Positions 3,101-60,090 of a stretch of 64,000 bases of DNA are shown here, piece by piece. Source of the DNA: Balanoglossus misakiensis (lineage: Eukaryota > Animalia > Hemichordata). Under the pieces are notes generated by a model that saw only the letters and a list, made by a program, of their open reading frames with translations, had not been told where the DNA came from and made no database searches. Every line of letters starts with the position of its first letter. Position 1 is the first letter of the stretch. The DNA lies in assembly GCA_040954595.2 (NCBI GenBank), contig CM082595.2:124001-188000 (forward strand), written 5' to 3'. The position numbers and the translations under genes were made by a program.

Positions 3101-4743
3101 TACATTTATACTGGTCAGGCAGACAGCGTCCTGTTAAGCAAAAACAATTGGCTCATTAGTTGATAGCAATTACGGACATGGGCCTATTTTATGTATTGTG
3201 GCATATTTTCTCTCGTCCTCCCTCAATTTTGATGTGACTATCATCCAATCAGTGTGACAATACATCCAAGACAGCATTCCCTCACCATATCTCTATACAG
3301 TATACTTTTGATATGCAGCCTATTTCATACTCGCCGACCAAACAATTGAAGTGTCAAGCCCCTGAAACTGATCCAATTCTGAGAGAGTTTCTGTGAACAT
3401 AATTGGTTTGTAAAAATAGAGGAAAGACTTCCCGGCACCAACTTGTGATGAAAGAAATTTGGTGTGTAACTGTAGGGGAAGAATAGTTTAGTTGGGCCTC
3501 AAGAGCGGCTAATGCGAGGGAATTTGTGAATTGTTTACTTATTTATAAACAACAATAATAGGATACCACTGTTGCAGTCTGTTTCATCAACACCGTTAGC
3601 GCAGTCCACGATACCATTACACCACATGTAGCGTTTGATGCAGACTTTGTTGTCATCATCACATGCTCGGTCGCCGGGCATACACGGACCTGAATACAAA
3701 AAAAAGGTTTATGCTATAAAACAGTCACAGTACTTTCACTTTGCAAATAAACGATATAAAAGACAAGAATGGTTGGGTTTTTACACATGGTAACACTATT
3801 GTTAGAAATCTAACATATCACCTGAAAACAACGGGAAATTGTTAAACGAAAGAAGTCCGCGCAATGGATCGACAATAATCTAGTCATATTTCAGTCCATG
3901 ATACGAGATGAACATGTCCGTGTTATATTTGCAAAGTAACAAGCGAGTTTCTGACTTCAACAACAAATATCAAAAGTGTACGCCGTAAGCGTTCAACGAT
4001 GATTGTAAGAATACACGGATCTGTAAATATTTCATATTCAAATAATGAACGTGGCGCGAATATTGATTGACCTCAAACAATGACAATGATTCTATTTTTG
4101 TTTCAACACAGCACCCGATCGGAACATTATATGCAAAATGATCCTTTGCCTTGAAATTATTATACTCTTATAATTTCACGACAAAGCCTATAATTGATGC
4201 GAGTAATTTTACGTGATGTTGCTCTGATTAAAATTTGTATTGCTACCAATATAAAACATAATATGTAAACTACCGGTATATGAACTCTGTTTTCTTAACT
4301 AGGAATTCTAAAAAATGTTTGCTGGTAATTAACTGGACTATACACATACATGTGTCCAATAAAAGTGATAGAAGGATGATGTACGAACCAAGGTAAGTAA
4401 ACGAGAAATATGGTTCATTGACAGCAGCCAGGTCCGAGTAAGAACTGTTCCTGATTTCTGACAGTCTCAGCTTGTTGGAATTGCAGACTGTGACGGCCGG
4501 AAAGAGCACAGAATCTCCCGTGATGACATCCATCTTGATGGCGACGTCGTATTGCAGGAACTTGGTGACCAGGGTTCCGACGTGAACACTATAACCAATG
4601 AAGGAGCCGAGTACGATGACAGTCCACATGTAACGACGAAAGCGAGTTTTGGACGCGGCGATGCGGGCGACGCCATGTGAGGTTGTTCGGGCGGCAAAGC
4701 TCTTGGCCAGGTCCTGCAGTCTGGGCTTGGTGTTTGGTTTCAT
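117..4743 (-). CDS. DEG/ENaC (amiloride-sensitive sodium channel family) subunit with tandem LDL-receptor class A repeats; 3' part lies beyond the left window edge
   Basis: Exon 1 (4743-4389) encodes the pre-TM1 motif TTSHGV, TM1 ([18 protein letters not shown]) and the family motif [10 protein letters not shown]. It is followed by symmetric phase-1 GT-AG exons at 3689-3567, 3130-3005, 2689-2549, 2074-2024, 1613-1464, 1331-1209, 931-809, 655-521 and 233-117. All but the short 2074-2024 linker encode LDLa-like modules, e.g. [32 protein letters not shown] and [32 protein letters not shown]. Confidence 0.9.
1367..1424. repeat. Short intronic tandem duplication
   Basis: TCTTCTCCCTATGGCAACGAGAAAGCA occurs twice, about 31 bp apart. 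Confidence 0.85.
2215..2530. repeat. (CT)n / polypyrimidine low-complexity tract in an intron
   Basis: Almost purely C/T sequence with long ctctct runs. Confidence 0.95.
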
Positions 4744-5910
4744 AATTGGTCGCTCAGGATTTTAAGCAATATTCCACATCAAGCATAAATTTGCGATGAT
4801 TTGTCAGTATTTCATTACCGGATAACGGCCCGAGCTTTTATCGAATGACGATCGACTAATAATTGCTCTACTAACGTCAATTGATTGCTCGTTACATCTA
4901 ACTTGTAAACACGGTTCCTTCACATCCGTCAACTATGACGTAGACCTATATTGTCTATTTAAATCTAAATAACATACTCTAAAAATAAAAATAAAACGAC
5001 CAGTACATTTACCCCAATCCTGCTTCTATTCACAACAATCGCACTGGTGTCATGTCCCTGGAATCAATCGATGTTCAAAGGTGGTTGGAGGATCGTTAGC
5101 TCAGCTCATTTACAACATATGTGAATCCAGTGCGTATTATTCTATCTTATCTATCTGATTTCATTAAAGAAATTAATTAGAAACCCATCTATCATAAGGG
5201 TATAACTAATAGCAATATACAGTATGCTATTCTGCGAGCTGTCAAGAAAATTGATTATCGCGGTTTACAACAGAGAAATTGGGTCTAGTTTCCGTTTAAA
5301 CATAAACAGATCTAAACTAAATGTATCGAACCAATTCGTATGTATAAAACTTGAAACGTGAAAACTGTGCTAAAACCCCGACTGTCACTATCTAAATTTT
5401 AACAAGTTTACGAACTTCCAACCGGAATGAACAACAACGCGTCTAATTCTGCATCTACAATGGTATCTTCCATGTGTCATATATTTCTTTTTTCTTGTAT
5501 AAAAAGCCCGTAGACTCGATTGTGAATGCACCGAAGGGACATAGGTTTAATTATAAATGACCTCTGATAATTACAGTTAGAAACTAATAGCTTCTTTTAA
5601 ATCATAAACCATCTGCTCATTCAGTGAGAACTAATATTAAAAAGCAATTTAGAACACTGAATCAATTATAGTCAACACTAATAATCATGTGCATCATGCA
5701 TATCATACGGTAAATGTGGACCTTGTTCTATAGAACTGGCACGTTTGGATCACTGATAGCTTGATTTCTTTTTTGATTTTAAAATGCGTTGACAAAAGTT
5801 CTGCCAGTTTATATTAGCATGTAGATAATTGCAATCAATCATGTTCTGTCAAGTACCGTGAAACCATTAACCTTCCTTTCAAGGCTGTGCGTATAAACAT
5901 ATGTACACGT

Positions 5911-6975: not shown

Positions 6976-9261
6976 ATGGAGCGTCTCCTGCAGACTGCGA
7001 AGTTGGCCGTTGCGTGTAACCGGTTAGCACTGACGAGGACGGGACCCGCTGTCCGATGTGGTGTGGGTTTCATTCGCCAGGGAAACGGCATTTCACAATG
7101 CAGTGTAAAGGTATGAAGCACTGAGCACAACAATGGCTAGAGATATCTTTCCGTAGAATATGTACGTATTTGTGGCGTTGATTATGTTTATACGTGAATG
7201 GATTTCAAGTGGTCAAGGACCTTTCGTGCTTCAAGCAAAGGCAATGTTCCAGTTTGCTTTTCAGCCAACATGTACAGTACAAAGCAATGTCACAAACAAT
7301 ATATAATTTACATGTAGAAAAAATTTTCAAATTATCAAGTTTTACCAAAAATATCTCAAAAAAGAATCTCAAATTTCTATACAGGTCTTACCAGTGTCAG
7401 TACTAGCCGTGTGCAGAAGACAATTTCCAGCCACACCATTGATGCTAAGTCGATATTTTTCTGTGGAAGAAACACCTAGGGCTGAAAAGGAGGATAAAAA
7501 GGAATCCAGTGTAAGTATGATGCATAGAATAGAGTGACCACTGGTGCGTGTACAGAAAGGACCAGAATTAATTTTCTATCTTGGTCAGCTCTAGGCTGAC
7601 CTCAAGGCCAGTCTGAGGAAACTTATTTACCACCTCATTGTGATACCTCATATGTATACACACATAAATCACAGCTCATGCTACAAGCAAATGGAGATAA
7701 CTAGCCCAGCCTCAGTTATAATTGTTTGAAGAAAATAGTTTGCTGAGCACAGAAAGTACACTAGCATAGTGTAACTGTAAATACTGGCCTATGAGCTCAC
7801 CCTAATACAGGCCCACATTTTACCTTTGTGAAAATGGGCTTGACAAATCAGTGGTGGAAGGGATAATCTAATGGAGGATGTGTACACTTGATAATTTTGT
7901 AGTTCAAGTATGTGTACTGAACATTTTTTTTCAGCCTGTAACGTGGAAGTCATTACTCATAACTGTTGCATTTGGTACTGTGCTTTTAGTGGGAATGAAA
8001 TATGTGAAGCAAGAAAAAGAAATAGGTATGTAGAGAAATTGAGTGGAAGTAATTGTATGTTGCTCGTCTTTCACTATTTTTCACTGGACGTCAAGTAAGT
8101 TTGTGTCATTCTTAAGTGAGTATACTTACAGAAGTGATTTGGATGTTTCAAGACACATTAGGGAGTACTACTGTCCATGGGCAAATGTACAAATATTCTA
8201 TAAATCACCGTGGCCAGTGATTGGCTTTGAATATGACAATTTTGCCAATTTTGTCTTTTTCTCTCCAAAAGCGGCTGAAAGAGAGAGGACAAAAACTCTA
8301 GGAAAAGCTGCCATTGGCGGACCCTTTGAACTGATTGACCATGATGGCAAACCATGTTCGAATAAAGATTTCCTGGACAAGTGGCTCCTCATGTACTTTG
8401 GCTTCACTCATTGTCCAGACATCTGTCCTGATGAATTGGAGAAGATGTGTGAAGTTGTAGACAGTATAAGTAGGTGTCCATCAAACCATTTCACCTCCGA
8501 TATTCTGTATGGTCTAATCCTGCTATTGTAAACTGTAGGTTTTGGTCAAAGTTAGTTTGCTGGTGAAAAAAATTTCACCTCTGATATTCAGTATGAACCT
8601 GATATATTGTGTTTTATTCCAGATGGGATCAAGACCATATCAGATCTCACTCCATTGTTTATAAGTATAGATCCAGAGAGAGATTCTCCCAAGGTAATGA
8701 AAGATTATGTCAAAGGTAAGATGGAGACACCAAAGATAAAAATGTAGGTGTTAATTGCTCAGGGTATTGCTTTGAATTTTTTCCAAAGTGCATTACTACT
8801 TCTCTATAAAGTTGTTCTGTCTACAATTTTGTTCCAGAATTTCACCCAAAGTTGTTGGGTTTAACGGGTAACAAGCAACAAGTAGAGCAAGCAGCTAGGG
8901 CGTTCAGAGTGTATTACAGTGCTGGACCCAGAGATGAAGATGATGATTATATTGTAAGTCAAGAGTCATGATAATGTGTTACTTGCAAGTAGAAGCACCA
9001 TTTGCCATTTCTGACACATGAAATCATAAAATCAATGTCTCTAACCATTTCAAGATTGCAAAATGTGTCCCCCCAAAACAGGCAACCATAAAATGCATCT
9101 GATAACTACTGTTTTTGTTTTGCTTGCAGGTTGATCACACAATAATAATGTATCTTCTCAATCCAGAAGGACAATTTGTGGATTACTATGGACAGAATAA
9201 AAATAGGGATGAAATCGCCAGCAGTATTGCTAGTCACATGAGGAAATATAGGCATTTGTAG
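6976..9261 (+). CDS. SCO1: Mitochondrial copper chaperone SCO1/SCO2 homolog
   Basis: Exons are 6976-7110, 7385-7510, 7935-8025, 8272-8469, 8623-8715, 8838-8953 and 9130-9261. The product has an Arg-rich presequence, a TM segment ([24 protein letters not shown]), GGPFELIDH, the copper-binding [12 protein letters not shown] (CxxxC), IDPERD and [11 protein letters not shown]. Confidence 0.95.
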
Positions 9262-21789: not shown

Positions 21790-24385
21790 ACTTGAAGAAT
21801 TAAACCTGGTTCCCTTTCACTCAACTGTTCATAAACAGAAAAACAAATACAGAAAAAGATTTTAAAAAACACAAAAAACATGTTTTTGTACATTCTGTTC
21901 TGGTGATGGTTTGTGGGAAAAATATATTTTAGTCACTTTTTGATGCTCTTGGCCGCCAATAATTTACCAGCCCACTATTTAGGAATGTATGTACCGGTAT
22001 AAAACAACACTAGATATCTAACCAAGTTGACATACCAACTTTGATATCTTGTTCATCTCAAGTGTGGGTAAACGTATGACTAGCCAAACTCAACAGTCTG
22101 ACCCCCAGATTAACTGTCTATATGTGCATATTGTAATCTCTTCATTATCAATTGACCAGGTCAATCTGGTTTACAAATCACTCATATCGCTAACCACGTA
22201 AAATTTCACTTGACTCATGTCTAAGTTGCTATGTTTTCAAAAAATGCAAAGTTAAACATTTTCTATGAAGTCTTCATTAATGAGAAACAATGTTCAGACT
22301 CTGTTCAGACTGCCAAAACAAGCTTAGAATTTCTTTAAGTACAAAATTCATTATGGCAAGAGAACAAAACTTATAGAAGTTTCAAAATTTTGTTAAAATG
22401 ATAATGTATTTCATTTGTATTTCATAGTTATATTCTTCAACTTACCGAGTAAATCTTCAATTCAACAGGATGAAAAATTCATGGAGTTGTTCGAGTCCTT
22501 TTCCAGCAGATCACAGCAAGAATTTCTGATAGAGAATGCAAACATACATGTATACATGTATTTGTCTCAGGAAATGAAAAGTAAAAGGATTCGGTTGTGA
22601 ATATTAATTAAAAGTAGTATGATTACGCAACAAAAACGGATGCGAAAATACAATAGACACAAAAAGTCGTTTGAAAGAAGCGTTGTTAGAGAAAGTGTTT
22701 ACATGATTGTTGTGCAAATGACAACCCTGAATGACCCATGACCCTGGGTAATTTAAAAGTCCGACGTTTCACGAAGCAGCGGCGTGTACACATCAGAAAT
22801 ATACGTTTGCGTCTTTCACAGAATACGTTGCGGCGGACATAGTCAATTTCACAGGCTGATATTGATATGCACTAAGTATCCCTGGGAAAGAAATGCTACA
22901 GTCTGTTCATAATTTACAAATATTCACTTATTTTGGGATGATGTTTATACGCACGCCGATAGCCCCATGCAGTGAGTGCGGTTAGGTGCAGACGTTCGCA
23001 ACGGAACAAATTTCACTGCATGCGATGTCATTCGGTCACGTCGGCAACGTTTTCTTTAAAAAGAGCAGTTGTCGTTAAAGTATGGTTCGTACTATTTAAT
23101 GACAATACATAAAACGACCATGAACACTTCTTAAAAACCGTAAATAACCTGTGAACATGCATGCGGATAGACGGCTTACCCTGACTATCTCAGCGACTGA
23201 CTCACAATAAAGAGGCCTAACCATTCTGTACGCCGTGTATAAATACCCGTTGACAATATATGCAAAAATACCCCCTGCAGAGTGAGCTCCAGCCATTCAT
23301 TGAGCTCGCTTATGTAGAAATTTGCATACATTACAAATCGCCATTTTCAGTGAAATATCGCCTATTTTGGTCTCATAGATATTATAGAATACTTTCACAT
23401 TTGGCTTGCGGTCTGAGCATTAGTGTATGGGTCTCCCGAAGTCACAAATACCTTCCGCAATATCAACCAAACTGCTAAAGACATAAACACTTAAAATCGT
23501 ACGCACGGAGCGCCATCTACGACACTCGCACATCACGTATATTATCTTTCGTTTACGTCATTTCCATGACTGAGTACGATCAAGGTTGATCACAAGAGTT
23601 TAGTTATTGCGCATACTATTTTGTTAAGTTCTGGCCGTCACGGGATGGTAAAAGTCTAGCCTCTCCGTTTTGCCGACTTTGAAATCTTTGGTGATTTTGT
23701 CATTTTTAGACATTATTCATGACGAAATAAAAGTACTGTACAACATTTCGGTTATGTGTCAAATTTTATTATCCGGAATATTTTAAAAGGTAAAAGTAAA
23801 ACTCGCTGCGTAAGTCTAAGACAATTGTACTGAGTGGGCGTCTTCAATCGGGATGTATACCTTCTCCTCCATAGTCTGCAAAGAACGGAAAGGTTAAGAA
23901 GCATCATCTCGTGCAATAGGCCTACTTGTACAAGTCCACGCTCACATCAGCTTCGGTGTATAACGAGTCTTTCATGCGGTGATCTGTCAAGCTGTCAGCA
24001 GAGCTTACAACCTTTGTACTTGCAGTTTACTGCCCTCTCCGTGACCCTTGGCGAGACAGCCGGGGTAACTGCATTCCAATGACTTATGCTATGCTATGCT
24101 ATGCATATGGCCGACACCGTCGATGGTGGTGACCATGTCTAGCTCCACGAAAATATGAAGACGACATATAGACGAATTATTATTGTGCATGTATATGTGG
24201 CCCAATATTTTAGCAATGAAAAAATGGATTGTGCACGACCCGCGTGGTATATTAAAACTTTTTGGTTTGACGATTTTTCTACCAATACGTAGTCAAGGCA
24301 ACTGTTTGCGCACATATTGACCGTCAGGAACGGACTATTCTTGTGTGTATTTATACAAGTGACAGAAAAACGAGGGTGTTTATAG

Positions 24386-24430: not shown

Positions 24431-25105
24431 ACTATCTTGATTGTGTCATATGTTTTATAGTGCATACGGAGAAATAGTGAGAAAAACTTCAAGAAACTTT
24501 TAGCGTGATTTATTTAATTGACAGCTTTATGCGATAATCAAACGACCTTTACAATCAGCCTCTTGTTTCCCGGTGATGTCGGAAATAATGTATGAAATGT
24601 ATTATGCCTTATTTTCTAGAAAAACAAAACTGCTGAGATACATTTCTCGAAATACAAAATATGACATACATAGATGTAATTTCAGTATTGACTTTGGATA
24701 CATTTCATCAACAATGCACAGCCTCTGAGTTGTATAAGCTTTTGAGTAATCTCTTATCTTGCCGATTTTAATGCGTTTTTTTCTAAATATGTATTTTATC
24801 AATATTGATTTGTGCGCGTCTCTTTTACATGCGAATTTATCAAATAATGTAGTATGTGCTTCTTCTTCGTTTTCAAATAAACACACACTAAGAATTGGAA
24901 GTTTTTTTCAGACAATCAGTCCCCGATGCGCATTCTACCTTAATTAAATTGATTGATAAAGAATCAGTGACTGCTATTTTTGTGGTGCATATGGACTATT
25001 GGATCTAATTTCAATGTTGCGACGACATACTACAGAGTGATAGCTTAAATGGTGCCTTGTACAAACTGCCACCAAACAGTTGGATATATGAAAACCATGA
25101 ACTAT

Positions 25106-25197
25106 CTACCCGATGAAAAGGTATGCCACCACTGCAACCACAACAGCATAAGTCAGCAACATCCAGCTCGCCGTGTTGGGGGCAGCACTGACAGTGA
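25106..25197 (-). CDS. Candidate terminal exon of the GH31 gene encoding a GPI-anchor signal or C-terminal TM helix
   Basis: The acceptor TTCATTCTTTTGCCTTTCAG precedes the exon. Joined in phase 1 to the donor A|GTAAGT at 25906, it reads ITVSAAPNTASWMLLTYAVVVAVVAYLFIG*. Confidence 0.65.
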
Positions 25198-25897
25198 CTG
25201 AAAGGCAAAAGAATGAAGATGATGTTTAATGAGGGCATAGTCCAGTCTGGTTCCACCACGTTTCTCACCGCTGGTGGCACTATGCTTTCGCCAAGACTGA
25301 GTTGGAAACTACGAGGCAACCAGACCGGAGTGATATTGGTGGCATGGTACCTGGTTTCTGTACTGATAAAAATATACGAATACAAAAAACTGTAACTTTT
25401 GCTTAATATATTTTTTAATTTCTCATATTTTTTGCTCTATAATGAAGTCCGTCAACACTATTCAAACACATGAGAAACAAAGACAACGTTACAGGTTTTT
25501 GCCGGGTTAGTACATTTTAGATCGTGCAAGTGAGGTGAATTTGTGCCAGCTACATACAATATGACGTCACAAATAAGTACTAATGTACTAATCAACGATA
25601 ACAAACCTCCATTCAACTAGAGTTCGTCTACAGTTGTCCTTGGGACGCGTACTGCCAGAACAAAACAAAACAAGACAAAACAAAACAAAGGATGTTCCTA
25701 TCATTATTCAGTAAACCACAATGGATGGTGATTCAACCGGACGCGTCGACCTCAGGTGGGCGAATCTGTATACCGTCAGATATCGCGATAACGAAATAGC
25801 TCGACAACAAAAGCAGTAGGACGTCAAAATATGATAAATGTCGAAAGGTTGTCAGTATACTCATGTCATGATAACAGAAAAATAAGCACAGACGTTG

Positions 25898-28336
25898 TTA
25901 CTTACTGCTACGCAGACTTTTAAAGGTGTCCACCCAATTTGACGATTTCTTGTAGAAGACAGGCGGGTATCCAAGTTGGGCGTTGACCGCAACCCATTGA
26001 CCACCAGTAACATCTGTGTCGTTCCACAGGTAAACCCAGTCGTCATCGGGGAGATACAGCGTCCGGCTGGTCTGGTCTGCGTCCAAGACGGGCGCCACCA
26101 AGAGGTCGCGTCCGTACAGGTACTGGTAACCGATGTTGTATGTTTCGGCGTCATCATCGTAGTGGAGAAAGAGGGGACGTTGAGCTGGGATGCTTTGGTT
26201 GACGTGTTGTGCCACGACTTCCTTCGAGTAGTCAACAAGCGCATGGTGCAGCTGGGTCAAGCGGGCGAATTTTCGCAAAGTTCCATCGCTGTCGTAGTAC
26301 TGCCAATTTTCATCTGGCCTGTTCCCTTCGTGTGTGCGCATCATCGGGGTGAAGACGGCCATCTCGCCGGAGCGGAGGAGAAGTTCTTCCGTGCGAGCGA
26401 AGCCGAAGAGCGCCGTATACCCGCCGATATCGAAGTGGGTAAGCCCCGCCCCGAGCACGGCCATGGACAATGCTGCAGGGATGACGGATGGGAGACCATC
26501 TCCCCAACTGAAATCAACAAACTGATCACCCGCCCACATCATGGTGCTGTACTTCTGCGTTCCTGTGTAACCAGCTCGCATCCAGTAGAGGATTTCGCCC
26601 AACTTGCCACTTTCTTCCACGGCTTCTCGATTCATCCTCGCCCAGATGTACGGCCACTTGTTGTGGAGTTCCTCCGCTGTCTCTCCGCTGTGGAACATGA
26701 CATTCTTCGTGGGTAGGTACTCCCCGAAGTCTGCCATCCACCCGGACAAACCCAGATCGATCATATTCTTCTTGATGACTTCGTCTTTATACCAATTATA
26801 AGCAGCGGGGTTCGTAAAGTCGATCGTTCCGCAGAAGAACTCGCCGAAATCCGCCACGTAAGAGTCGTTTTCGGGAGTTTTAACAAAATAGCCATTCTCG
26901 TCGGCTATTTTGAAGAGATCGCCCTCCCTGTTCAAGTACGGATTGATGTACGCCAAAACTCCAATTCCGCGCGCTTTCAACTTCTCTATCTCTGTGTCCA
27001 GGTTGGGATACTGCTCTTGGTTCCACTTCCAGTTCCAGAACAGCCTCCGACCGAAGGAAGTCGTGATTCTTCCCACCCAATCTTGAATCCAGACGGCGCT
27101 CACTTCGATGCCGTATTTGTCTGCCTGGTCGATGTACTCTAGCATTGCGTCCGTGCCTCCCTGGATCCCGAGCACGGCTCCGTTGTAGAGCCAATCGGGC
27201 ATGGCCGGCATGGTGCCCAGCAGGTTACTCACCTTCTGTACCACCCCCAGCATCGTCGGTGCGGTGCCGAAGTAAATCTTCCCGGGAGTGTTGGTCCACA
27301 CTTCCAGCTCATGAAAGTACTCGTTACGAAAGTCCAGCACCGAGTACACCGATGTGTTGAAGTGACAGAAGAACTTGCGGGAGGACACAAACGTCGGTTC
27401 TGGGTAATATGTCGAATGGTAGTCGCCGCCGCCACCGTCGTTCTGGTCAGCGTAGAAGGTGGTTAGCGTGCTCTTATTCCGACCGACGCCCTGTTCTCGC
27501 GTCCACAGCGGGAAATCATGCCCACGTAGATCGAAGTACGAAAACTGCTCGCCGCCGCCATATACATGTTCGTCAACTTCGGCCAAAACGCGGATCCAGT
27601 ACCGGTTGATGACGTCAGAGGTTTGTGTGAACTCTGCGACGTTATTGCCGTCAGCATCGGTACCAAATTTCACAGTGGTCTAGAAAGATGAGTAGATACA
27701 TGATTAAGGGGATTTAAGTTGTTAAGGCCAGGGCTTTAAAAGTTTGAGAAACGACAATAACAATCGCAGTCAAACGAAATTAAAAGTCGTTAAAATGTAC
27801 ACGCCCGGAGCAAACCAGCTATGGGGTTCTTCATCACTTGTTGATTATCACCTACTTGACCACAGGTGATGCAATTTGTCTGGGATTGTAGTGTCGGTCG
27901 CAAACCCTTCTTGTTTTTCTTGAGTGAATGAAACCCCGGGGTCAGCCCAGTCACGTGACACTTTGACGTGCTCTTGGATAATTTAAGACGCCAAAGTTCA
28001 GCCCCAATAAAAATGTCGCTGCCCTCTCACCTGATATTCGGCATTTCGGGAAAAATTCACGAAATAGTCCGAGGATTGTTGGGTGACGTTGAACTCAGTG
28101 AGGCCAATGCGCTCATCCATGTACTCAGAGATCACAAAATTTCCCAGAAACTCTTCGATATCGGCTACTCCGTTGCCGGCGTAGAGAAAAGGCGATTCGG
28201 TGGTGTGACTTATCAACGTGACGTCACCCAGGGATACGGTCAGCGTCGTCTCTGTATAATCAACAACGAAGTTGCCACTGGCAACGGAGCAGTAGCAGAC
28301 CACAAGCAAGAGGGTGTGGTACAACCTCATAGCCAT
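25898..28336 (-). CDS. yihQ: Glycoside hydrolase family 31 sulfoquinovosidase (YihQ-like) with N-terminal signal peptide
   Basis: Exon 28336-28031 (102 codons, beginning with the signal peptide MAMRLYHTLLLVVCYCSVASG) splices in phase 0 to 27679-25898, giving about 695 aa. Motifs follow E. coli YihQ as recalled: GEQFSYFDLRG, EQGVGRNK, GIQGG, WIQDWVGRITTSFGRRLFWNW, WMADFGEYLP (nucleophile), MMWAGDQ (acid/base), DIGGYT and MMRTHEGNRP. Confidence 0.92.
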
Positions 28337-31765: not shown

Positions 31766-34700
31766 ATGGCAGCCAAGAACGCTGAAAAGGAACCGCTTTT
31801 GCGGGATCCAGTGAATGGCACACGGGTAGCGTATACAGGCGCCGCGGAAAACGATGAAACAACCGTGGAGCCATTGGAAAGCTCGGGTGGGAGGTAGGAT
31901 TTTCGGTAGCGGGTTCCCTATTCCTAAATCATGGTTTATTTAATATGTTTAATCGATGATCCACCAAATAGTCGACGGTATGATATTCACAGACGGTCAC
32001 TCAGCATGCTAAGAGAGCTTAAACAAACTAAAATCGTACAAACTCCGAGAACACTTAACGCGAACTTCTACGTTCTTATATTATAATTACATGTACATTT
32101 CATCGCTGTCAACGCAACTCGCCTGCATGTCACGCGCACACATAGACGCCCCTAGTCGATTTGCGCTGTTGTGAAACGTACATACGACTGATCTTAAATC
32201 ACCAACGTTTGGTTTTAATACAGGATAATCATGGCTATTGAGCACCATGATAACCTTGAACCTGTAACACTACAGTGAAACGTACAACATGCGCATAATC
32301 AGTTTCCTCACAGCTGCTTGTATAGACCCCTATTCCGACAGTGGTACCAGATCCAAATTGGCAAAGGTGCATTTCTAGACGCATGGACCCAATTCTAACC
32401 ATGTATATCTCAGGCACCGATTCATTCACTAGATGCAAGTGTTAAAGCTTTAACCTCTGGACAATCGTGAATGTAGCAGCCAATCACAGATTTTCAGTGG
32501 CTGCAGTGGCACAATTGAACAAAAGTGCGCCACCACATGGTCAAGACGAGATGTAAGCAATATGTCAAAATAAAACCAACATATAAAGGCATTTAACTTT
32601 TCCATGGTTTAAATGTGAAAAGTACAGGCAATATGTTTAAATATATGCCACACTCTTGAAGTGTCAATGTCCTTTTTAGAATAGTTAAAGTTTGTGGACT
32701 ATGATGATAAAAATAATCTTAGGAATCAAAGGTCATTTTGGCACTGAGGATCTAGGTCAATATGATCATGATGACATCATCAATGCAAACAAAGTAGCCA
32801 CAGCTTTGCCATATTTGGAAGGAAACCGAACTCCAGCTAGTGAATTACATCATTTGCATAATAAAGGATTCACCTGTACGTCATGTACATGTCACAAAAT
32901 GACATCACTGAATGAAGTATATGTCCTATCAGTGGAGCTCCTGACATTTTTTCTTATCAAGTTTGTCACTTTACACTGCTCGAGATTAGATTGATAATAT
33001 TATGGCTAAGCAATCGGCTCTTTAACCCCAGTTCCCTCAGTAGAGGTCCAACCTTATACCACAGAAAACAATGGGCTTTGACTGAACCATGGTCATACCA
33101 AGACATAAATAAAACCAATTCTCTTTTCTTGCTATAAACAGAAGTGATTGCGTTGGAAGATGTTTATTTAATACATATTATTCCACTTTTAATCAGAAAA
33201 TTAGGTGATTATATATCTATCTGTGATTCTGTCATTACAGTGATGATACTGAGGTCAAGATTAAGGCCAAACCAGCAACTCTCAAACAGTTGGTAAGAAA
33301 ATATTTAAGAAATAAAATGAAAGTAAAATCAGGTTATATATTTCATATTTATAGTACATTTTATAATATTATAGCATATTTTTCAGTTCTAATGTCCAAC
33401 TCAGTCTGTAATGTTAATAGATTTTCTTTTCACATTGCTTTGTTCCCAGTTTCGCTATTCAACCTGGCTAGATGTATTTCTAATGGAGATTGGCGGCTTA
33501 TTTGCAATGGTGCATGGTGCTGGCTGGCCTGTGTTGATGGTTGTCTTCGGGCAAATGACCAACCTTTTCATCGAAGGCCCCACCTCTAATACAACTTTAC
33601 CATCCATCCTGCCAACCTTACCAAACACACTGTCACCTGTCAATTTCACCAACGGCAGTTCTGCTGTTATCGTCTTCCCTTATGCATATCCGAGCACCAA
33701 AGCGTGGGAAGATGAAATGTCGCGTTATGCAGTTATCTATTGTATCGTTGGTGGAGCTGTTTTTATAGCGTCCTATTTTCAGGTGAGTTAAAGGAACACA
33801 GTCACCTGTGCAAATTAAGATCTAGCCAATGACAGATTTAAAGTGGGATTCACGTGACCATATTTCTAGCTGTTTGAGTCTCATGAAAGTTTATAACACA
33901 TACCTTATTTGTGAGTAGCAATTCCTGTTGTGATGATGAGGATCTAATTGCAAGACTCAAAGGGATGCTATCATAGACAGATGGTTAGGATCAAAATAAC
34001 TCATAAACTCATTATGAAAAATAATTGACTGTCTGTTTGTTTGTTTGTTTGTTTATACATGCATGAACTGTGCCCCAGTTGTGAAGTTAATGGCAAAAGT
34101 GTTCTATAGAAGGATGATAAAATATTGGAACTATCTCTGAATTTTTTTACTAGATGAATATATTCCTAATTTCATTTCCACTACACAGTGTATGTTATTT
34201 ATAGGCATAGACACTCCTGTATTAGCGTGGACATCCTAAAGCATATTTTCAGTGTTAGTTCATCATATGCACTGTTGGTTTTACAAACGGTATTATTGTC
34301 ATTCGGCCATTCATCTGTGTAGAATGCACTGTTAGATACAGGAATAACTGGAAAAGGCATTATTTTAATCTGCAATGATGTACATTGTAACAATTACACT
34401 TTACACATATCACTGCTGTGGGCCTCATACCGACAACAACCACATAAAGACATGAGCACAAGAGATTATTACTGCATTATCCGAAAATCAAGTGAACTGA
34501 TGGTTTTATTATTATTAAACTTCTTGCAGGTCTCCTTTTGGACCATGAGTTGTGAGAGACAAACTCACAAGTTTCGCAAAGCATTCTTCAAGTCTATCCT
34601 CCGACAAGAGATTGGTTGGTTTGATAAACACCAGAGTGGAGAATTGACAACGAGACTTGCAGAGTATGTATCTGCAGTGCTTTTCTGGGGAGTTGATCTG

Positions 34701-51335: not shown

Positions 51336-54300
51336 TCATGTGATTTTCAGCCGACTGCCATAGACTGCCTTGATAAAGCCTTGTACTTGGTTGACTATGA
51401 TGTCGTAACCATCCAGCCATGGTTTCCGTTCTGAAAGATTTACTAGCCTGTGGAAGCAAACAAGCAGTTTTTGTCAGAAAAAAGGAGCTGGAAATGATAA
51501 ATGTGACAAACATTTCAAGAAAATCCCCCCAACCATTGCAGTAGAACACAGAGGAAAATTCACGATAAATTCATATTCACAGTAAATTGGTTTCAAGCTC
51601 ACCTTTTTATGTACTTGAGAAGCAAATCGACCATTTCAAGATTCTTATCATCAATCAAGTCACTCAAGTACTCAACAAACTGTTGGACATCTTCTGTTTC
51701 AGGATCTGTGGAGATAAGAACAAATACTATTGCCATAGTAACCACTCCTTTTCAAACTGACTTGTTTGTTCATGTCTAATGTGAGGGCAGACATGAATCA
51801 TTTATAATTCAAACATAAAGCTTTTCTCTCTTACAACTGTCTTGCTGATGAACTTGATATGAATTTCATCCAATGGTCATCAGTCATCACTAGAGTCTCA
51901 GCTCCTCAAGATCAAGGTCGACTTATTCTTAGAAATCTGTGGTGACGCATGCTATTAATACAGGCACACTTGATAGGTCAAAGGTCACTTACTTGTGCAG
52001 CTTTCAACCCATTCTTTGAGCAGTGTTTTCACATCTTGTAATTCCACTCTTCCACACAAATGAATTTTCTTTCCAGCAAACATAGCTTTGTCTTCCTGTG
52101 TGGAATTCTCCTCCTTCTCCTTAGTATTTGCCACTGTCTCAACCCATGAGCACGAACCCTCATCTCCTTTACCCCTTTCTTGTCCATCTCCCAAACAAGT
52201 GTCTTTGTTTCCATGGTGGCTGTTAGCCATATTGTTTGTATCATGGCTGTCGGCCATGTTATTTCCATGGTGACTGCCAACCACACTGCTTGTCCCCATG
52301 AACATGTTCTGGATGTTTCTCTGTTTAATTTTCCAATCTGTTTTCTGTTTTTGAGGACTGGTTTTCTTAGGTCTTCCCGGTCCTCTCTGAGCCTTTCCAG
52401 GACTCACTTTCTTCTTGGTTCCCTTCTTTGGGGATTTCAGTTTAAGGGGACTGCTCTTTTGCTTGGAAGAATCAGTATGCTTCAACTGATTGGCTTTCTC
52501 TTGGTATGCAGATTTCAACTCAGCTTGTAGCTCACTCGGTAATGCTTCCAGAAAGCTAGGGTCAATCTACATGTGAAATAAAAGTATGTCTTCACATGTC
52601 AAAAACTTCTATTATCAATGTCTTACAAAATGTAGATTAAACACATGTAATCAAACTTCACTGAAATGGGACTATGGTAGAAAAAAGTTTACAGTTTGGG
52701 CTAATATTAATTGAGAAAACAGCAAAACAATCACAAACCTGTGAGAATGAAGGAAGGGCTTCGATAGAACCATTTTTTGTCTGAATATTGCTTTCGTTCT
52801 TCACACTGACCCCACTAGGACCGGCTCCAGGATCGTCCGTCCACCTCACCACAGTCTTCTGTTTCATGGTTGGCGGGTTTACTTCACTGAGTTGTTTGAC
52901 GGTTTGTGCTTTTTCTTCCAGTTCCGTCAGCAACAGATCTTTCACGACTTCTGCCGGCAAAGCCTGCAAGACGGAGACATCCCACTCCGATGGGATGCTG
53001 GGCTCTTGTGCGACAGTGTTCCTACAACAAAAAGTGGGACAAGTTATTTTGACTATGCTGTACATGTAATTACAAAACAATCAACGCAATAGTTTACCAT
53101 TGTCCAGTTAACGGGAACTCGATCTTTTTCAGAATTTATGTTTTCTAACATTGCAACTACACATAGTCCACTCCTACCTGTCCGGTATTTTTTGGTTTCT
53201 GGCCGCATAGCCCTTCATGATCTGATCTCTGAGATTCTCAGGCAAGGCTGCCAAGACACTGGGATCAACCTAAACATAAAAGGAAACACCACTGTATTAT
53301 AAACAGTATATGCCAGCTGACCATGGTATCAGATCTGGATATTCTCTTACGTATACAATGAAGTCGTGCATCTGACAATGAAACTAGATGGTATTCCCAT
53401 AGCAACAAACCTGTGATGGCGACGGCAGATACAGATCTTCATCTTCTCTTGTTGCTGTAGTGGCTGAGCTTGTGGATGATGCTCCACTGGTTGCCATGGA
53501 AGCACTGGCAGAACTAGATACAGATGACTTTTTAAACAGAGCCTTGATTCCATGTTTTGATCTGGGAGAAGGTGTCATGAAGCTTTCTCTGTCTTCCTCC
53601 TGACCCATTGAGGGCGCATTACTGTTATTTGTGACAGGCTCTTGTGGGATGGAGGGCTTTGGCTCTGTTGACATTGATGGCTTTGGGATGTTTTTCATGA
53701 AGTCAAGCACAGATCTGGTCTGGGTCGCTTGTCCCCCGGGTTTGTTACTGCTGAGTCGGTGGATTTGAATTCCCATCTGATAGAAGACAGAAAATATGTA
53801 GTCTGTCAACAAACACAATGGGAGCTTGTGCCCGCAATATTTAATGGGCAAGTACAATGTTCAAGGCAATTCTGCAATAAAAGTATGAAATGTCATGTAT
53901 CAAAGGTCATGTGGAATACCCTCCTTACCCCTCTCAGTTCACACGCTGGTATTTTCATCTGTTTCAAGAGTGCCAAACTCTCTCGTCTGATAACCTGCAC
54001 TTGATCTGTGGGCATCACTAGTGTTGTGGACTTTGCCAAATTATCACATACTCCATGTCCCATGAACTTGGCCGTTTCAACAGGAGCACCAGCTTTACGA
54101 ACTTTCAGCTTCAAAGTGATTGTCTTGCCCTTCAAGTTGACATTGGCCAGTCTTTTCTGGACTTCTTCTGAAAGTTCACTGATGAATTTGTCTGCCTCAC
54201 TATCCTACAGATATCAAAACAAACAAACACTCACATAAATAAATAAATAAACATTTCACAAAAATCAAAGAAAAATGCTGATTTTTTTGGGCTTCAAAAT

Positions 54301-57300
54301 AGCACATTCTACTGAGTGCCAAGTCTGACTGTTGTGCCATCTTGCCACACTGCATCATGGGTACTGATTGATCTCTTGTGGGTGTCATGACCTCTGACCC
54401 TTACCTCAGTGAAACGGATGCCGTAGTTGATTTCTGCCGACACCGACTTCCTTTCCTGATCCACTCTGATTGGTCGATCATCAATGCCCCTGCAGTACTG
54501 ATACAACGACTGACCAGTTTTTGGTCCAAACTCCTTCTGTAAATTTCTCTGGTCGTACTCTTGCAGATCTGCGCAAGTCTTGACTCCCATGGTGCTCAGT
54601 CTGTGACCAAGTGACCAGCCTACACCTAAACATCATGGTTTGTGACAGAAGAGAATGTTTCAGTCATTCCAAATCTTGACTGGCACATATTTGTGAAATG
54701 AAATAATTTGCAGTGATAAATTCTTGCATCCATGTACAAAAGTGTTTCTATATAAAAAGTGATACATGCATGTAACTGCACATACAAAATATGTTTCTGC
54801 AATTACCTGGAAGATCCTTGACTAACTGGGTCGTGATGAACTCTGTCACTTTTTCGGGGGCAAGGTGGAACTGTCCATTAGGCTTAGCAACACGAGTGGC
54901 CATTCTGGCGAGGAGTATGTTGGAAGCTGTCAAAATACAGGTTTATGTAGAGATGCTGAAAAGCAGTGCAAACAAATACATACGGATACAATGTGTACAT
55001 AGGAAAAGATTATTAGTCCCATGTTTGTACTATTGTCCTTCCATATTTTAAGTTTCATTAATGATTGTACAAGTTCAGTGTAATGAGCACACCAGACATT
55101 ACCTAGGCCAACAGATGCTCTACAGCCTGTCTTCTGATATACCTCTTCTCGCAAGACTTCACTAAACTGCAGTGATGTGACTCTGGTGTCTTGAAGAACA
55201 TCGCCAATGTCCACCAGCATTTCATCACAGCTCACTGCTTCAATATCATGTGTATAGCTGTGAATGAAGACAATGAAATGTTCACAACAGATACAGAATG
55301 AGTTCAAGTACAGTCCTCATTCAAATCATGGGTGTACGGTACCGGTATGATGCAGACATGTACATATTAAACTTAGAATCAACTTAAACTGTATTGAACT
55401 TGTTAATAAAAGTTCGTCTTTTGATTTACCTTGCTACTGTCTCATAGAGGATTTGTGACACTTCTTTATATTTGTCAAAGTCGTACGGAATCGTCTTCAG
55501 TTCCGGACAAAGCTTCTTGGCTGTTCCCATGAACATTCCATTCTTGATGCCGGCTTTTCTGGCTTCATAGCTGCAGGATGCTATTTCTGCCATGGAGTTA
55601 AACTCTTCCGACGACTTGCCAATATCCGGTTTGGCAGCAATTTCCAGGGCACCCGAATCTTTAGAACTTTGCAATTCCTCAGTGATATCAAACCGACCAT
55701 GTGGTGTTTTGCCCTTCAAGCTTTTTTCTTTACGGAAATGGTTATAATACTCTCGCTCATATACAGGGTCGGTGTTAGTACGATCTGTTTGCGCGCCCCT
55801 TCCCTTGGAATGGGTTACAGCTACAGGTTTTCCGTTCAACTCCGGTCGAGACAGCAGTCCCACAGACACAAAGAAACAATCCATGTCAACATGCATTATC
55901 ACTCTACTGGTCTCACACACAACCAGTTTTTTTGTTCCTTTAACTTCACCAACCATTCCAGTCTCACTTCCAAGCTTTCTCAGTTTTTCTCTGCCAGGGA
56001 AACTTGTATCTCCCTCACTTTGTAATTTCTTGACAAGGGCCTTGTACTCTGCTCCCCACGTCGATATGTGGTGAAGTCTTGAATTGCTGTAAAACTCCGA
56101 CACAAAGTTTGCTTCACCAGCTTTGGCTGGTGACTTTTGCTCTTTGAACTTCAAACTTTGGCAAGGCGAGTGCTCTTTGTTTTTAACCTCTGATGTTTTT
56201 TTCCCACTTTCCAGATCAGTTTGAACTGGAATTTTGATGGCCAAAGTTTCTGCTGATGTAAGATTGCCTTGTTCTTGCTCACATTCCAAGGACTCTACTG
56301 ATTGGACAGGTGGCTCCAAGTCAGCATTCTGATTTGCTACATTACCTTTAACATCTGAAGTCCGATTGGCTGAATCTCCAGAAGCTGACGCCTGAATGCT
56401 GATTGCCTCTTTCCACTTTGATTCCTGACTTCCACCTTGACTGGTCTGTTCTCCTTTCACAGCTCTGCCAAATGGCAAACCTGGCTGAGCTTGGGTTCGT
56501 TGTGAGTAGAGTAGATAAGGTGTACAGGAAAGCAACTTTCCAGCTTTTATGCTGTAAAAACAAACCAAAAAATGGTAATAGGAAATGAATAAGAAAATTC
56601 TTGACACTATAATGTTCTGTCACAATAAATGCACATCTTCAGTTAAGATGGTGACCATAAGAAAAGGACACTAGGGGTACTGCTTCCTCTGCCTCTAAAT
56701 AGTCAAGTCACCTCAATGCAACTATCATTTTGTCATTTGTCAATATTTAGACGTAACTCTGAAAACATTGAAACTTTACATACCAGTCAAGAATCCACTC
56801 TGGTTTGACTACCCTCTCTCCTTTCAGCTCACGAATCTTCCCATGAGGCAAAGCTGATGCGATCATGTGTGTTACCGTGGTTTTACTGTAGTAGTATTGA
56901 TGTTGGCCTCCATGGAGCATCATCAGTCGTTTGAGTTCATCTGATGATGGAACTGAAATAAAAATACAAGTTGTGTGTAAATTACTTCAGAACCTGCAAC
57001 ATGATGACTGTTGGATGACTGGGAACATGTATAAAGAATGACCAATCAATCGAACACAGATTTGGAAAATGATGCAGTATTTCCAAAATGCTGTAACCAT
57101 GGATACTTACCTGTATACCCATTGATATATATTTTGACTCCTTCAAATATCTTGGAGCTCGATCCTTCTCGGTGTATCTGTTTTGGCGCATCTTCTCGGA
57201 ACTGTTCGTCCAACTTGCGCTTTTTGGCTGCCATATATCCACCCTAAACAGAAGAGAGAACTCTTGTTTTACTAAACCCCTACAGCCTGACAAGTACACG

Positions 57301-57556: not shown

Positions 57557-59289
57557 CGTATGTACTGGTTTCCCGTCTTTGTCAAAGTGCGACTGGAAAG
57601 AGCTGATCAAGCTCTTTATATGAGTTCATTGGCATCGATGACATCATGTGTGCACGTGTAAATGTTTTGATTTTCGCCAACATGCTGAGACTTGCATCAA
57701 GTTTGGTTGAAAGTTATTTCTTTACTCGGGATGCGATCTTGTCCTGACCGGTGAGGGCGATGATAGCATCAACTTGACTGTGTGTGCATGTACACCCTGT
57801 ATTTCTGAAAACGATAATTTAAAGGCAGTATGAGTATAAAGGGGCTGGCGGAGCTTTAAAGGTGTCCAACGGATTCTCAATGATTGATCTGTATGGAATC
57901 GTAAAACATAGCGTGACTCTTGGCGTAAGCACGATTCCCACAGCGCCGTAAACAGTAATAAAATCGAAGTTAGTGCATTGTCGTGATCACATATATCCCC
58001 CATAAATGCTTCCCAGGTGAGTTGTCAGGCGTTTACCGTTTGTAAAAACCCACGCTGGCTGTCGTAAAATGGCTAGAGCTCGAGTGAACAAAACGGGTCT
58101 ATTTTGATATTGTAATGTAAGCATCGGCTCTGAAACAACAAGCGATAAGGACACTGAAGTGACCCTTCTTTATCAGTTTCGCTTCCCGAATCTCTACTTT
58201 GATACGGGTACACTGACATGGATAGTGTTGGGTTTCCGTGACAACAGAGCTACATTAATATTATTCAGGTGATTAATGTAGTTGCCCCCGTTTCTTGCGG
58301 ATTGGAAAACCAGTTCCAACATAATAATGTACATGTGCTGCAGGAAAACACGGCTAATCCTTTTCTTATCAGCACAGGGGTAAAAAAATCAAAGTTGAAG
58401 TTATCTGATACTTTATTGTTAGTCATTTTATGATAGTGCTCTTGAAATACTATGGATGTTGTGGTAACAAAAGGAAAAAGAAAATTGAGGGAGAAGATTA
58501 CGCGAATCTGTATTAATTTTACTAATCACTAATGCACCAAAGGGATTGATCCAAACCCATTAATACTGTGTGCAAATAGAGGCTTATCTGGGTTCCTTAG
58601 GTTTTTCTCGTTGATTGTGAGTTCTATCCTTGGATGTAGCTTTAAGTTTTAATCAAAGGCGCAATGCAGTTATCCCATCCAGGCAAAGCGTGGCATCATA
58701 TCGCCATCTTCAAGGCTTCTTTTCCCATTACGATGGCTGGTGCAATTTTCACAACCAAGGTTAACGAGCTTGGATTTTGAGTATCACTGTGAACTAACAG
58801 CATACAGTCATAATTGCAATTTTGTGTGATAGGAAAAGGAAAAGTGCCACGCACACACAAAGGGGAAGGCAGTAATGACGGAACACAATTAAGAATCCAA
58901 TTTTCAACAAAATTCGTTCCGATGATTTGGCATTCATTCTTGGAAAATTATTACTGCGGGTTTATGACCATGTACCACATATTGTGTCTGCACACACCCA
59001 AGAATAATGCTATACATAAAGCTCGTGATAAAATCACGCTAACCTGGGTAAAAGAATCGTGAAATCACATGACAGCGTGACGTCACTATATTCAGAGAAA
59101 TCCGCAGCTTTAAGTATTTCTCACGCATAGTATGGATGGTTGTATTACTGAGCGGTTGCAGCGCATCGTCTGCTGCCAATGAATTTCAGTGATAGCGCAC
59201 GTGTCAATCGAATATCACTATTTTATTTCTGTACTACACAGGCTAATGCGGTACTCAGATAGCATGTTTTTCTGTCGGGTCGAGGCGAC

Positions 59290-60090
59290 ATGACATCGAA
59301 CGCGAGCGAAGCGGATGCCGAGGCTATCGAGTATGGAAACGCGGTCGCCTGGACCGCTGTGGTGGCGGTGAGCATCGTGCATAACCTCGTCTGCATGCAT
59401 GTCGTCGCCGAGTACACGGAGAAATGGAAGAGCAGTCATATGCTCATCTTCTCGCTGGTGCTGACGGAGTTCTTCAACTTGACCATGCCGCTGGCCATCA
59501 TGTCCATCATGATCGTGTCCAGATCCCAATGGAACACCACCAGCTGCCAGTTTCTGCTGTGGAGCCTGCTGACGTTTCGCGTGGTGGTGGCTCTTCATCA
59601 GGCCTTCCTGGCGCTCGACCGTGTGTGGTTTCTCAAGTGGCCGTCGGCCTACCGAGTGCACTTTGCGGCTCACCGAAGCAGCAAGACAGTGGTCTTCATC
59701 TGGCTGCTGAGCACACTGGCCGGATTCATGCCCATCCTCGGTTGGGAAGACACCCGTAATGCCGACGTTCAAGTCAACGGCAAGTGTCACATCTTACTCT
59801 CCGACATGGGACTCGGTTATGCGATCTCGCTGGAGATTCTCCTCTTGCTGACGCTCGGCGTCGGGACGACGTGCATCCTGGCCGCCGTCGTCGGCATCGC
59901 CTGCAAGTCGTCCAGGAACACCAGGCGTCGGCGAAGCTACCGCATCCCGTCCATAGTGATAGAGAGCGAGACGGGAGAAAGAACACCGGCGTTTGATGGA
60001 ACGATTGACGGGCGAACGAGCAACCAAGTCTGTCTACTTGTCTGTGTTCTCGTGCTGACCAACTACCTGGTCGATGGTGTACCTTTCGTT
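59290..60090 (+). CDS. Class A orphan GPCR, GPR153/GPR162-like; first coding exon (TM1-TM6), remainder not found in the window
   Basis: There are six hydrophobic segments. KWK after TM1, WNTTSCQ, LDRVWFLKWPSAYR, IWLLS..MPILGW and the ICL3 motif IPSIVIE...FDG resemble GPR153/162. A donor GTT|GTAAGT lies at 60090. Confidence 0.8.

What the first reader, a model, noticed from the sequence alone, without database searches (positions are those of the whole stretch)
25106..25906. Hidden 3' exon gives the sulfoquinovosidase a GPI/TM anchor: possible soluble versus surface-anchored isoforms
Seen: the ORF's last codons AGC AGT AAG TAA contain a consensus donor A|GTAAGT at 25906. About 700 bp downstream, a strong polypyrimidine acceptor opens, in the matching phase 1, the exon ITVSAAPNTASWMLLTYAVVVAVVAYLFIG*. 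Established: small residues (S-A-A), a spacer and a terminal hydrophobic stretch are the layout of a GPI-attachment signal. An optional 12-nt in-frame microexon (25362-25351, IQKP) is also possible. Inference: a cytosolic bacterial-type enzyme has been rebuilt at both ends into a gut-surface ectoenzyme, and intron read-through would yield a secreted form. The ORF track misses this exon.
Basis: partly seen in the sequence, partly recalled or inferred. Interest (0 to 1): 0.8.

Follow-up and report, generated by a model that had tools for sequence, protein, structure and literature searches.

The report
One sulfosugar enzyme, three alternative tails
A gene of a likely acorn worm, for an enzyme predicted to digest algal sulfolipid, carries alternative last exons that would give it either a KDEL-like ER-retrieval tail or a membrane helix with a cytosolic tail, so the simple GPI anchor first proposed is likely only part of the picture.

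Summary
This is an animal sulfoquinovosidase (GH31, YihQ type) of an acorn worm. Its catalytic exon ends at a phase-1 donor (25906), an intron position shared with Ptychodera flava, a sea star and a sea cucumber. Two more exons were missed. (1) 25651-25617 gives an 11-residue tail ending V-D-E-L; it matches P. flava isoform X3 (same length, ends A-D-E-L) and is the window's only xDEL/xEEL-stop. (2) The stop of the hydrophobic exon lies inside a phase-2 donor (GG|GTAG) that joins in frame to 23875-23752, a basic 40-residue tail 60% identical to P. flava isoform X1. So the supported products are a type-I membrane enzyme and a soluble xDEL form; the GPI form, the read-through form and the micro-exon stay possible but unsupported. 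No RNA data could be laid. Signal peptides and GPI/TM tails on animal sulfoquinovosidases are already in a 2026 preprint; a splice switch and xDEL ends are not mentioned there. VDEL/ADEL may be weak retrieval signals. Verdict: new variant of a known kind, moderate interest.

The parts
28031..28336 (-). Coding exon A: start codon, likely signal peptide, N-terminal beta domain (102 codons, phase-0 donor). An acceptor at 28363 suggests an upstream untranslated exon (inferred).
   Evidence: PRK10426 profile positions 11-89, E 2.9e-10; tblastn with homologues. Signal peptide judged by eye from the hydrophobic N-terminus; no predictor available.
25906..27679 (-). Exon B: GH31 TIM barrel and C-terminal beta domain; ends with the first base of a split codon (phase 1)
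   Evidence: (839 bits, cut-off 553); seven YihQ residues present
25898..25905 (-). Donor GTAAGT and, if read through, two codons and a stop (695-aa soluble product; unsupported)
   Evidence: same intron position in P. flava, Asterias and Apostichopus
25617..25651 (-). Alternative last exon 1 (new): 11 residues ending V-D-E-L stop; 704-aa soluble product with a KDEL-like end
   Evidence: only [DE]EL-stop in six frames of the window; same length and 5 of 11 residues identical to the P. flava X3 tail, 1 of 1000 shuffles as high; 19 of 20000 simulated introns give such an end with an in-phase acceptor
25351..25362 (-).
   Evidence: acceptor ranks 4 of 110 AG and donor 3 of 170 GT in a small same-window matrix; no matching insertion in acorn-worm homologues
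25110..25197 (-).
   Evidence: (Kyte-Doolittle 17-residue maximum 2.57); acceptor ranks 2 of 110 AG; helix 714-737 in the model of P. flava X1
25104..25109 (-).
   Evidence: rank 12 of 170 GT; weak; two Saccoglossus model versions diverge at the same glycine
23752..23875 (-). Last exon 3 (new): 40-residue basic cytosolic tail (10 K/R, 1 D/E) with the conserved stretch LLLPFKIFRIIK; 763-aa type-I membrane product
   Evidence: tblastn of P. flava X1 on the window, 60% over 35 aa, E 8e-6; in-frame join; 0 of 1000 shuffles versus P. flava, 250 of 1000 versus Saccoglossus; acceptor ranks 6 of 110 AG

Best explanation
The gene encodes a predicted sulfoquinovosidase whose catalytic exon ends in one phase-1 donor that can join in frame to two different downstream exons, and alternative splicing likely chooses where the enzyme ends up: the near exon gives a soluble form ending V-D-E-L, predicted to be held in or slowed through the ER/Golgi, and the far exon plus a third exon gives a predicted type-I membrane form with a basic cytosolic tail. 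Shown by sequence: exons, phases, open frames, conservation of all three tails with P. flava isoform models. Inferred: that both joins are made in this species; that the signal peptide puts the catalytic domain in the lumen; that the membrane form works on dietary sulfoquinovosyl lipids at a cell surface or in digestive vesicles; that the xDEL form is retrieved by the KDEL receptor. Stopping at the weak donor of the hydrophobic exon would give a third, GPI-type end; this is possible but has no isoform-level support.
For: P. flava gene A has three RefSeq isoforms that diverge at exactly the window's donor: X1 TM plus tail, X2 short, X3 ending A-D-E-L. The window holds in-phase counterparts of X1 and X3. 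xDEL exon: only such end in the window, 19 of 20000 simulated introns; it was looked for after X3 was seen, so it was a prediction. Tail exon E 8e-6. The current Saccoglossus model also has TM plus basic tail, and its older version stopped one residue after the same glycine. The three supported acceptors rank 2, 5 and 6 of 110 AG sites. The model of X1 shows domain end at 701, helix 714-737, second helix 745-767. xDEL/xEEL ends recur in Antedon (H-E-E-L) and a Diadema paralogue (K-D-E-L): 5 of 241 fetched proteins, all animal.
Against: No RNA evidence for this species. The P. flava and Saccoglossus isoforms are database models whose read support I could not see. In the small same-window matrix both key donors score low (25906: 0.7, rank 26 of 170; 25110: 3.2, rank 12; leave-one-out range 1.9-12.0). 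V at position -4 is outside the Prosite KDEL motif (PMC2140024) and ADEL is mostly secreted by human cells (PMC8248988), so the xDEL form may not be retained. The cytosolic tail does not align significantly to the Saccoglossus tail on its own (250 of 1000 shuffles). P. flava gene B and Glandiceps are annotated with a terminal hydrophobic end and no tail. The preprint names no hemichordate among its GPI or TM predictions in the text I read. Enzyme activity is untested.
Confidence: 0.75

Rival explanations
1. One reading: the hydrophobic exon is mostly terminal, the product is GPI-anchored at the serine of S-A-A, and intron read-through gives a secreted form.
For: Omega-site layout fits the PredGPI description (PMC2571997): small residues, 7-residue spacer, hydrophobic tail. 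V-S-x-A-P is kept in P. flava A, P. flava B and Saccoglossus. The donor at 25110 is weak. P. flava gene B and Glandiceps end hydrophobic. GPI signals are predicted in many molluscs and some echinoderms and chordates (preprint). S-K-stop after the same donor also occurs in three unnamed sea-cucumber ORFs, and 0 of 10 reference donors would give so early a stop in phase 1.
Against: The stop lies within a donor with a conserved in-frame partner exon; 6 of 10 reference donors give an immediate stop in phase 2. Only about 5 residues lie between the domain's last helix and the omega serine (by homology), against about 11 in the PredGPI description. None of the three P. flava gene-A isoforms ends at the hydrophobic stretch or by read-through. 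Poly(A) hexamers in the introns are at chance density (0.66 and 0.67 per kb).
Confidence: 0.3
2. Only the membrane form (exon B, hydrophobic exon, tail exon) is made; the xDEL exon is a relic or a minor, neutral splice product.
For: The TM acceptor is the strongest of the three. VDEL and ADEL are poor signals for the human receptor (for ADEL). Only 5 of 11 residues match X3. A Lytechinus paralogue appears to have a decayed xDEL end.
Against: Length, phase and D-E-L-stop are kept between two species whose catalytic parts differ by about 18%; xDEL ends recur in a crinoid and a sea urchin.
Confidence: 0.15
3. The xDEL exon is used, but it simply yields the secreted digestive enzyme: the motif is a weak or tuned retrieval signal rather than an ER anchor.
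For: ADEL and DDEL reporters were mostly secreted from human cells (PMC8248988). Arthropod homologues have a signal peptide and no tail at all. Expression is digestive in other taxa (preprint). This rival is compatible with the exon structure of the best explanation and differs only in the last step.
Against: A secreted form needs no D-E-L; canonical K-D-E-L and H-E-E-L occur at the same place in echinoderm homologues. ADEL is a working signal in some yeasts, depending on receptor residues. The acorn-worm receptor was not examined.
Confidence: 0.35

Closest known systems
Animal sulfoquinovosidases (Uchida et al. 2026, bioRxiv 10.64898/2026.02.11.705467)
   Same: Same family, signal peptide, C-terminal GPI or TM predicted in several lineages, Hemichordata listed among the phyla.
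   Different: That study kept the longest isoform per gene and treats anchoring as gained or lost per lineage; 'splic' and 'KDEL' occur 0 times in its main text. Here one gene holds alternative ends, one of them KDEL-like.
Ptychodera flava sulfoquinovosidase-like isoforms X1-X3 (XP_070561501-503) and paralogue XP_070561505
   Same: Same donor position, same 11-residue xDEL tail, same TM plus cytosolic tail.
   Different: P. flava has two copies, both sister to the window's single copy; its short X2 end has no recognisable counterpart in the window.
E. coli YihQ and related GH31 sulfoquinovosidases (PDB 5aed, 6pnr, 5ohy, 8r56)
   Same: E-values 1e-192 to 6e-217, all seven named active-site residues present.
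   Different: Bacterial enzymes end right after the last helix; 97 of 98 non-animal hits have no hydrophobic C-terminal window above 1.17.
Acetylcholinesterase 3' isoforms T, H and R (PMC5388418)
   Same: Works like it: one catalytic core, competing 3' acceptors and read-through choose soluble, GPI or otherwise anchored forms.
   Different: Unrelated enzyme; no KDEL-type or type-I TM form among those three.
Mammalian carboxylesterases with or without HXEL (PMC5818367)
   Same: Lipid-acting hydrolases sorted between ER lumen and secretion by a KDEL-like end.
   Different: In the passages read the choice is between paralogues, as in Diadema here, not between exons of one gene.

Membership tests
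GH31 sulfoquinovosidase (YihQ type) | GH31 TIM barrel plus C-terminal domain; YihQ equivalog score | tested here: met
   PF01055, PF21365; NF007746 839 bits, cut-off 553
GH31 sulfoquinovosidase (YihQ type) | Q288, R301, W304, Y508 (substrate), D405, D472 (catalytic), H537 of E. coli YihQ | tested here: met
   Q301, R314, W317, Y523, D419, D487, H552 (alignment); residue list as given in the preprint
GH31 sulfoquinovosidase (YihQ type) | Hydrolysis of SQ-glycerol or SQDG | not testable with these tools
   needs an assay
GPI-anchored protein | N-terminal signal peptide | tested here: inconclusive
   hydrophobic N-terminus seen directly, as in most full-length animal homologues; no signal-peptide predictor was available
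GPI-anchored protein | Small residues at omega to omega+2, spacer to omega+9, hydrophobic tail from omega+10 | tested here: met
   S-A-A, 7-residue spacer, hydrophobic to the end if the exon is terminal
GPI-anchored protein | About 11 unstructured residues before omega | tested here: not met
   about 5 residues after the domain's last helix, read from the model of P. flava X1; 9 with the micro-exon. The rule is approximate.
GPI-anchored protein | The hydrophobic stretch is the C-terminus of the product made | tested here: inconclusive
   stop overlaps a donor with a conserved partner exon; no RNA data
GPI-anchored protein | GPI predictor call or PI-PLC release | not testable with these tools
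   no predictor, no bench
Type-I single-pass membrane protein | One hydrophobic helix of about 20 residues after the lumenal domain | tested here: met
   hydropathy 2.57; helix 714-737 in the homologue model
Type-I single-pass membrane protein | Basic residues just after the helix and a cytosolic tail | tested here: met
   three arginines two residues into the tail exon; 10 K/R and 1 D/E in 40 residues, if the join is made
KDEL-receptor cargo | Soluble lumenal protein ending x-D-E-L | tested here: met
KDEL-receptor cargo | Position -4 accepted by the receptor (Prosite K, R, H, Q, S, A; also F, W, Y, N in human cells) | tested here: not met
   V is in neither list in the text read; the figure with all XDEL variants was not visible; ADEL is poorly retrieved by the human receptor
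KDEL-receptor cargo | ER localisation dependent on the motif | not testable with these tools
   needs imaging

The most novel reading that the evidence does not exclude
Acorn worms route one bacterial-type sulfolipid hydrolase to three compartments by a single 3' splice switch (ER-retrieved xDEL form, type-I membrane form with an amphipathic cytosolic helix, GPI form), and the xDEL exon is an ancestral ambulacrarian option that sea urchins later split into separate KDEL and anchored paralogues. An ER-held sulfoquinovosidase would mean animals clear algal sulfolipid from their own internal membranes, or trim an unknown sulfo-sugar in the secretory pathway, not only digest it in the gut.
Probability: 0.2. 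Interest if true: 0.7.

Novelty: new variant of a known kind. Interest (0 to 1): 0.45.

Why it matters
Sulfoquinovose release was thought to be mainly bacterial, and animal enzymes have only lately been surveyed, one isoform per gene. [quoted passage not shown] The xDEL form points to a compartment (ER or early Golgi) not named in that survey, and gives a small, direct test: three junction counts and three tagged constructs.

Tried and rejected
No whole genome is held. No RNA holder was listed, so no reads could be laid; this says nothing on expression. A search for short transcript-derived fragments gave 19 hits, none above 59% identity, none named as acorn worm. The Atlas feature search on the homologue's TM and tail gave no usable hit; structure rows were short helix matches under the naming bar. 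Earlier scan findings: none in three look-ups. An intronic 12-bp hairpin at 25225-25355 is not significant (z -1.25, 17 of 200 shuffles); no repeat family in the 3' introns. Poly(A) hexamers after each end are at chance density and were rejected as evidence. No second sulfoquinovosidase copy in the window. No counterpart of the P. flava X2 end among acceptors with at least 9 of 16 pyrimidines. The careful tree did not finish; the quick tree was used, without rooting or a one-clade test, so no donor or order of events is claimed. Among 148 new cluster representatives only one unnamed 925-aa protein ends xEEL. Tyrosine and di-lysine sorting motifs in the tail were considered by eye and are not conserved in P. 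flava (motif definitions recalled).

Full report
Observation. The gene lies on the minus strand. Exon A (28336-28031) and exon B (27679-25906) join in frame to 693 codons plus one base.

Identity. Exon B scores 839 bits against the YihQ equivalog (cut-off 553), and its best six PDB matches are YihQ-type or unnamed GH31 enzymes (E 1e-192 or better). The seven residues that the preprint lists for E. coli YihQ are present as Q301, R314, W317, D419, D487, Y523 and H552. The best database hits are acorn-worm proteins: P. flava 84% and 82%, Glandiceps 74%, Saccoglossus 73%. In a quick tree of 46 rows (window, 26 named or presumed animal proteins, 18 bacterial or unnamed, 1 ciliate, chosen by me from 241 fetched), the window's protein is sister to both P. 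flava copies (support 99) inside an acorn-worm group (100); the 27 animal rows lie on one side of a branch (100). The tree is unrooted and the careful search did not finish. The source is therefore likely a ptychoderid acorn worm other than P. flava (inference).

What homologues say about the 3' end. P. flava gene A has three RefSeq isoforms that diverge at the residue matching the window's donor: X1 runs into a hydrophobic stretch and a 38-residue basic tail, X2 ends after three residues, X3 ends after 11 residues in A-D-E-L. Saccoglossus has the hydrophobic stretch; its older model stops one residue after the closing glycine, its newer one continues into a basic tail. Unnamed ORFs in the sea-star and sea-cucumber clusters leave the annotated proteins at the same residue and continue S-K, which is what A|GT AAG reads, so this phase-1 intron is likely shared across acorn worms and these echinoderms; in sea urchins the divergence lies three residues later.

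Scanning phase-1 acceptors showed one at 25651 that opens an 11-residue tail ending V-D-E-L stop. It is the only [DE]EL-stop in six frames of the window. Of 20000 simulated introns of the same length and dinucleotide make-up, 120 had such an end and 19 had it with an in-phase acceptor. It aligns without gaps to the X3 tail, 5 of 11 identical, 1 of 1000 shuffles as high. Second, tblastn of X1 finds its cytosolic tail at 23868-23764 (60% over 35 residues, E 8e-6). The stop of the hydrophobic exon lies inside GG|GTAGAT; splicing there to the acceptor at 23875 gives an open 40-residue tail, with F-I-G-L at the junction in both species. That tail scores 0 of 1000 shuffles against P. flava but 250 of 1000 against Saccoglossus, where only basic charge and a few positions are shared.

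Splice-site strength. A matrix from 10 donors and 11 acceptors of this window (nine exons of the neighbouring MTHFR-like gene, which join to 589 residues without a stop, plus sites of this gene) ranks the acceptors at 25197, 25362, 25651 and 23875 as 2, 4, 5 and 6 of 110 AG sites; an unexplained AG at 25357 ranks first and one at 25457 third. Donors rank 26 (25906), 12 (25110) and 3 (25351) of 170 GT sites. The matrix is small; it supports the acceptors, calls both key donors weak, and does not exclude the micro-exon.

GPI or transmembrane. The terminal version has a proper omega region, spacer and tail by the PredGPI description, and V-S-x-A-P is conserved in three homologues. Against it: 6 of 10 reference donors would give an immediate stop in phase 2, so the stop is no evidence; the AlphaFold2 model of P. 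flava X1 (mean pLDDT 90.6, tail blocks 46-71) ends the domain at residue 701, leaving about 5 residues before the serine instead of about 11, then a helix at 714-737 and another at 745-767; sea-urchin, sea-cucumber and mollusc homologues with terminal hydrophobic ends have longer S/T/P-rich stalks. For it: P. flava gene B and Glandiceps are annotated with a terminal hydrophobic end. Poly(A) hexamers are present after each end but at chance density. Read-through is neither supported nor excluded: no P. flava isoform has it, three sea-cucumber ORFs show the same S-K-stop, and 0 of 10 reference donors would stop so early in phase 1.

The xDEL end. Five of 241 fetched proteins end in xDEL or xEEL, all animal sulfoquinovosidases: P. 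flava X3, Antedon and three Diadema records of one paralogue; with 410 proteins one unnamed 925-aa protein is added. They sit in three separate places of the tree, and in Diadema the KDEL and hydrophobic ends belong to different paralogues. Whether V-D-E-L is retrieved is open: V is outside the Prosite motif and the residues named as effective in human cells, and ADEL reporters are mostly secreted by human cells, though some yeasts use ADEL with a different receptor.

Mechanism. Shown: exon layout, phases, conservation. Inferred: a signal peptide brings the enzyme into the secretory pathway (seven N-glycosylation sequons); use of the near acceptor gives a soluble 704-residue form held back or slowed by its xDEL end; use of the far acceptor and the next donor gives a 763-residue type-I membrane enzyme facing the lumen or outside; skipping that donor would give the 723-residue GPI-type form. 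Digestive use rests on expression data from other taxa, not on this species.

What is known. The preprint 10.64898/2026.02.11.705467 already reports animal sulfoquinovosidases in 65 species with signal peptides and predicted GPI or TM ends; it kept the longest isoform and has no occurrence of 'splic' or 'KDEL'. I read its abstract, the first of two parts of Results, the whole Discussion and matched passages; its figures and supplements were not visible and could hold hemichordate predictions. Other papers: PMC5388418 abstract and passages; PMC8248988 passages; PMC2140024 abstract, one section and passages, figure not seen; PMC2571997, PMC5818367 and PMC7560691 passages. Searches for a sulfoquinovosidase with ER retention or for a GPI/KDEL/TM splice switch listed no paper that describes this, judged from titles and abstract starts; the library lacks most subscription papers. 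The P. flava isoforms themselves are already in RefSeq, uncommented.

Verdict. A real hidden exon in a known kind of animal enzyme. The addition is the three-way 3' anatomy with a KDEL-like option, conserved between two acorn worms. New variant of a known kind; interest 0.45; confidence in the best explanation 0.75, limited by the lack of RNA evidence.

Noticed in passing
window 21824-16892 and on, minus strand: MTHFR-like gene directly downstream; nine exons join to 589 residues without a stop, PF21895 match. Used as the splice-site reference.
   Followed up: partly
window 25357, minus strand: An AG five bases downstream of the micro-exon acceptor scores highest of 110 AG sites in the small matrix; in phase 1 it opens at least 100 codons running through the hydrophobic exon in another frame. 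No homologue support sought.
   Followed up: no
window 23770-23765, minus strand: The only AATAAA near the end of the tail exon lies inside its last codons, 11 bases before the stop; use of it would leave almost no 3' untranslated region.
   Followed up: no
window 25225-25355, minus strand: 12-bp intronic stem between the micro-exon and the hydrophobic exon; not beyond shuffles (z -1.25).
   Followed up: yes
window 4273-4761 (-), 8043-8528 (+), 33393-33788 (+), 51988-56619 (-), 59263-60129 (+): Other gene pieces by Pfam: amiloride-sensitive sodium channel, SCO1, ABC membrane region (below cut-off), Y-family polymerase IMS with a UBM hit (UBM below cut-off), rhodopsin-family receptor.
   Followed up: no
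proteins P0021 and P0213 versus P0014: The Lytechinus paralogue that groups with the Diadema KDEL paralogue ends K-D-E-P-C-S or K-D-K-P-C-S, which looks like a decayed KDEL end.
   Followed up: no
protein P0203: A Paramecium sulfoquinovosidase-like protein groups among the bacterial rows with an unnamed record, apart from the animal ones; its letter make-up was flagged, so the placement is uncertain.
   Followed up: no
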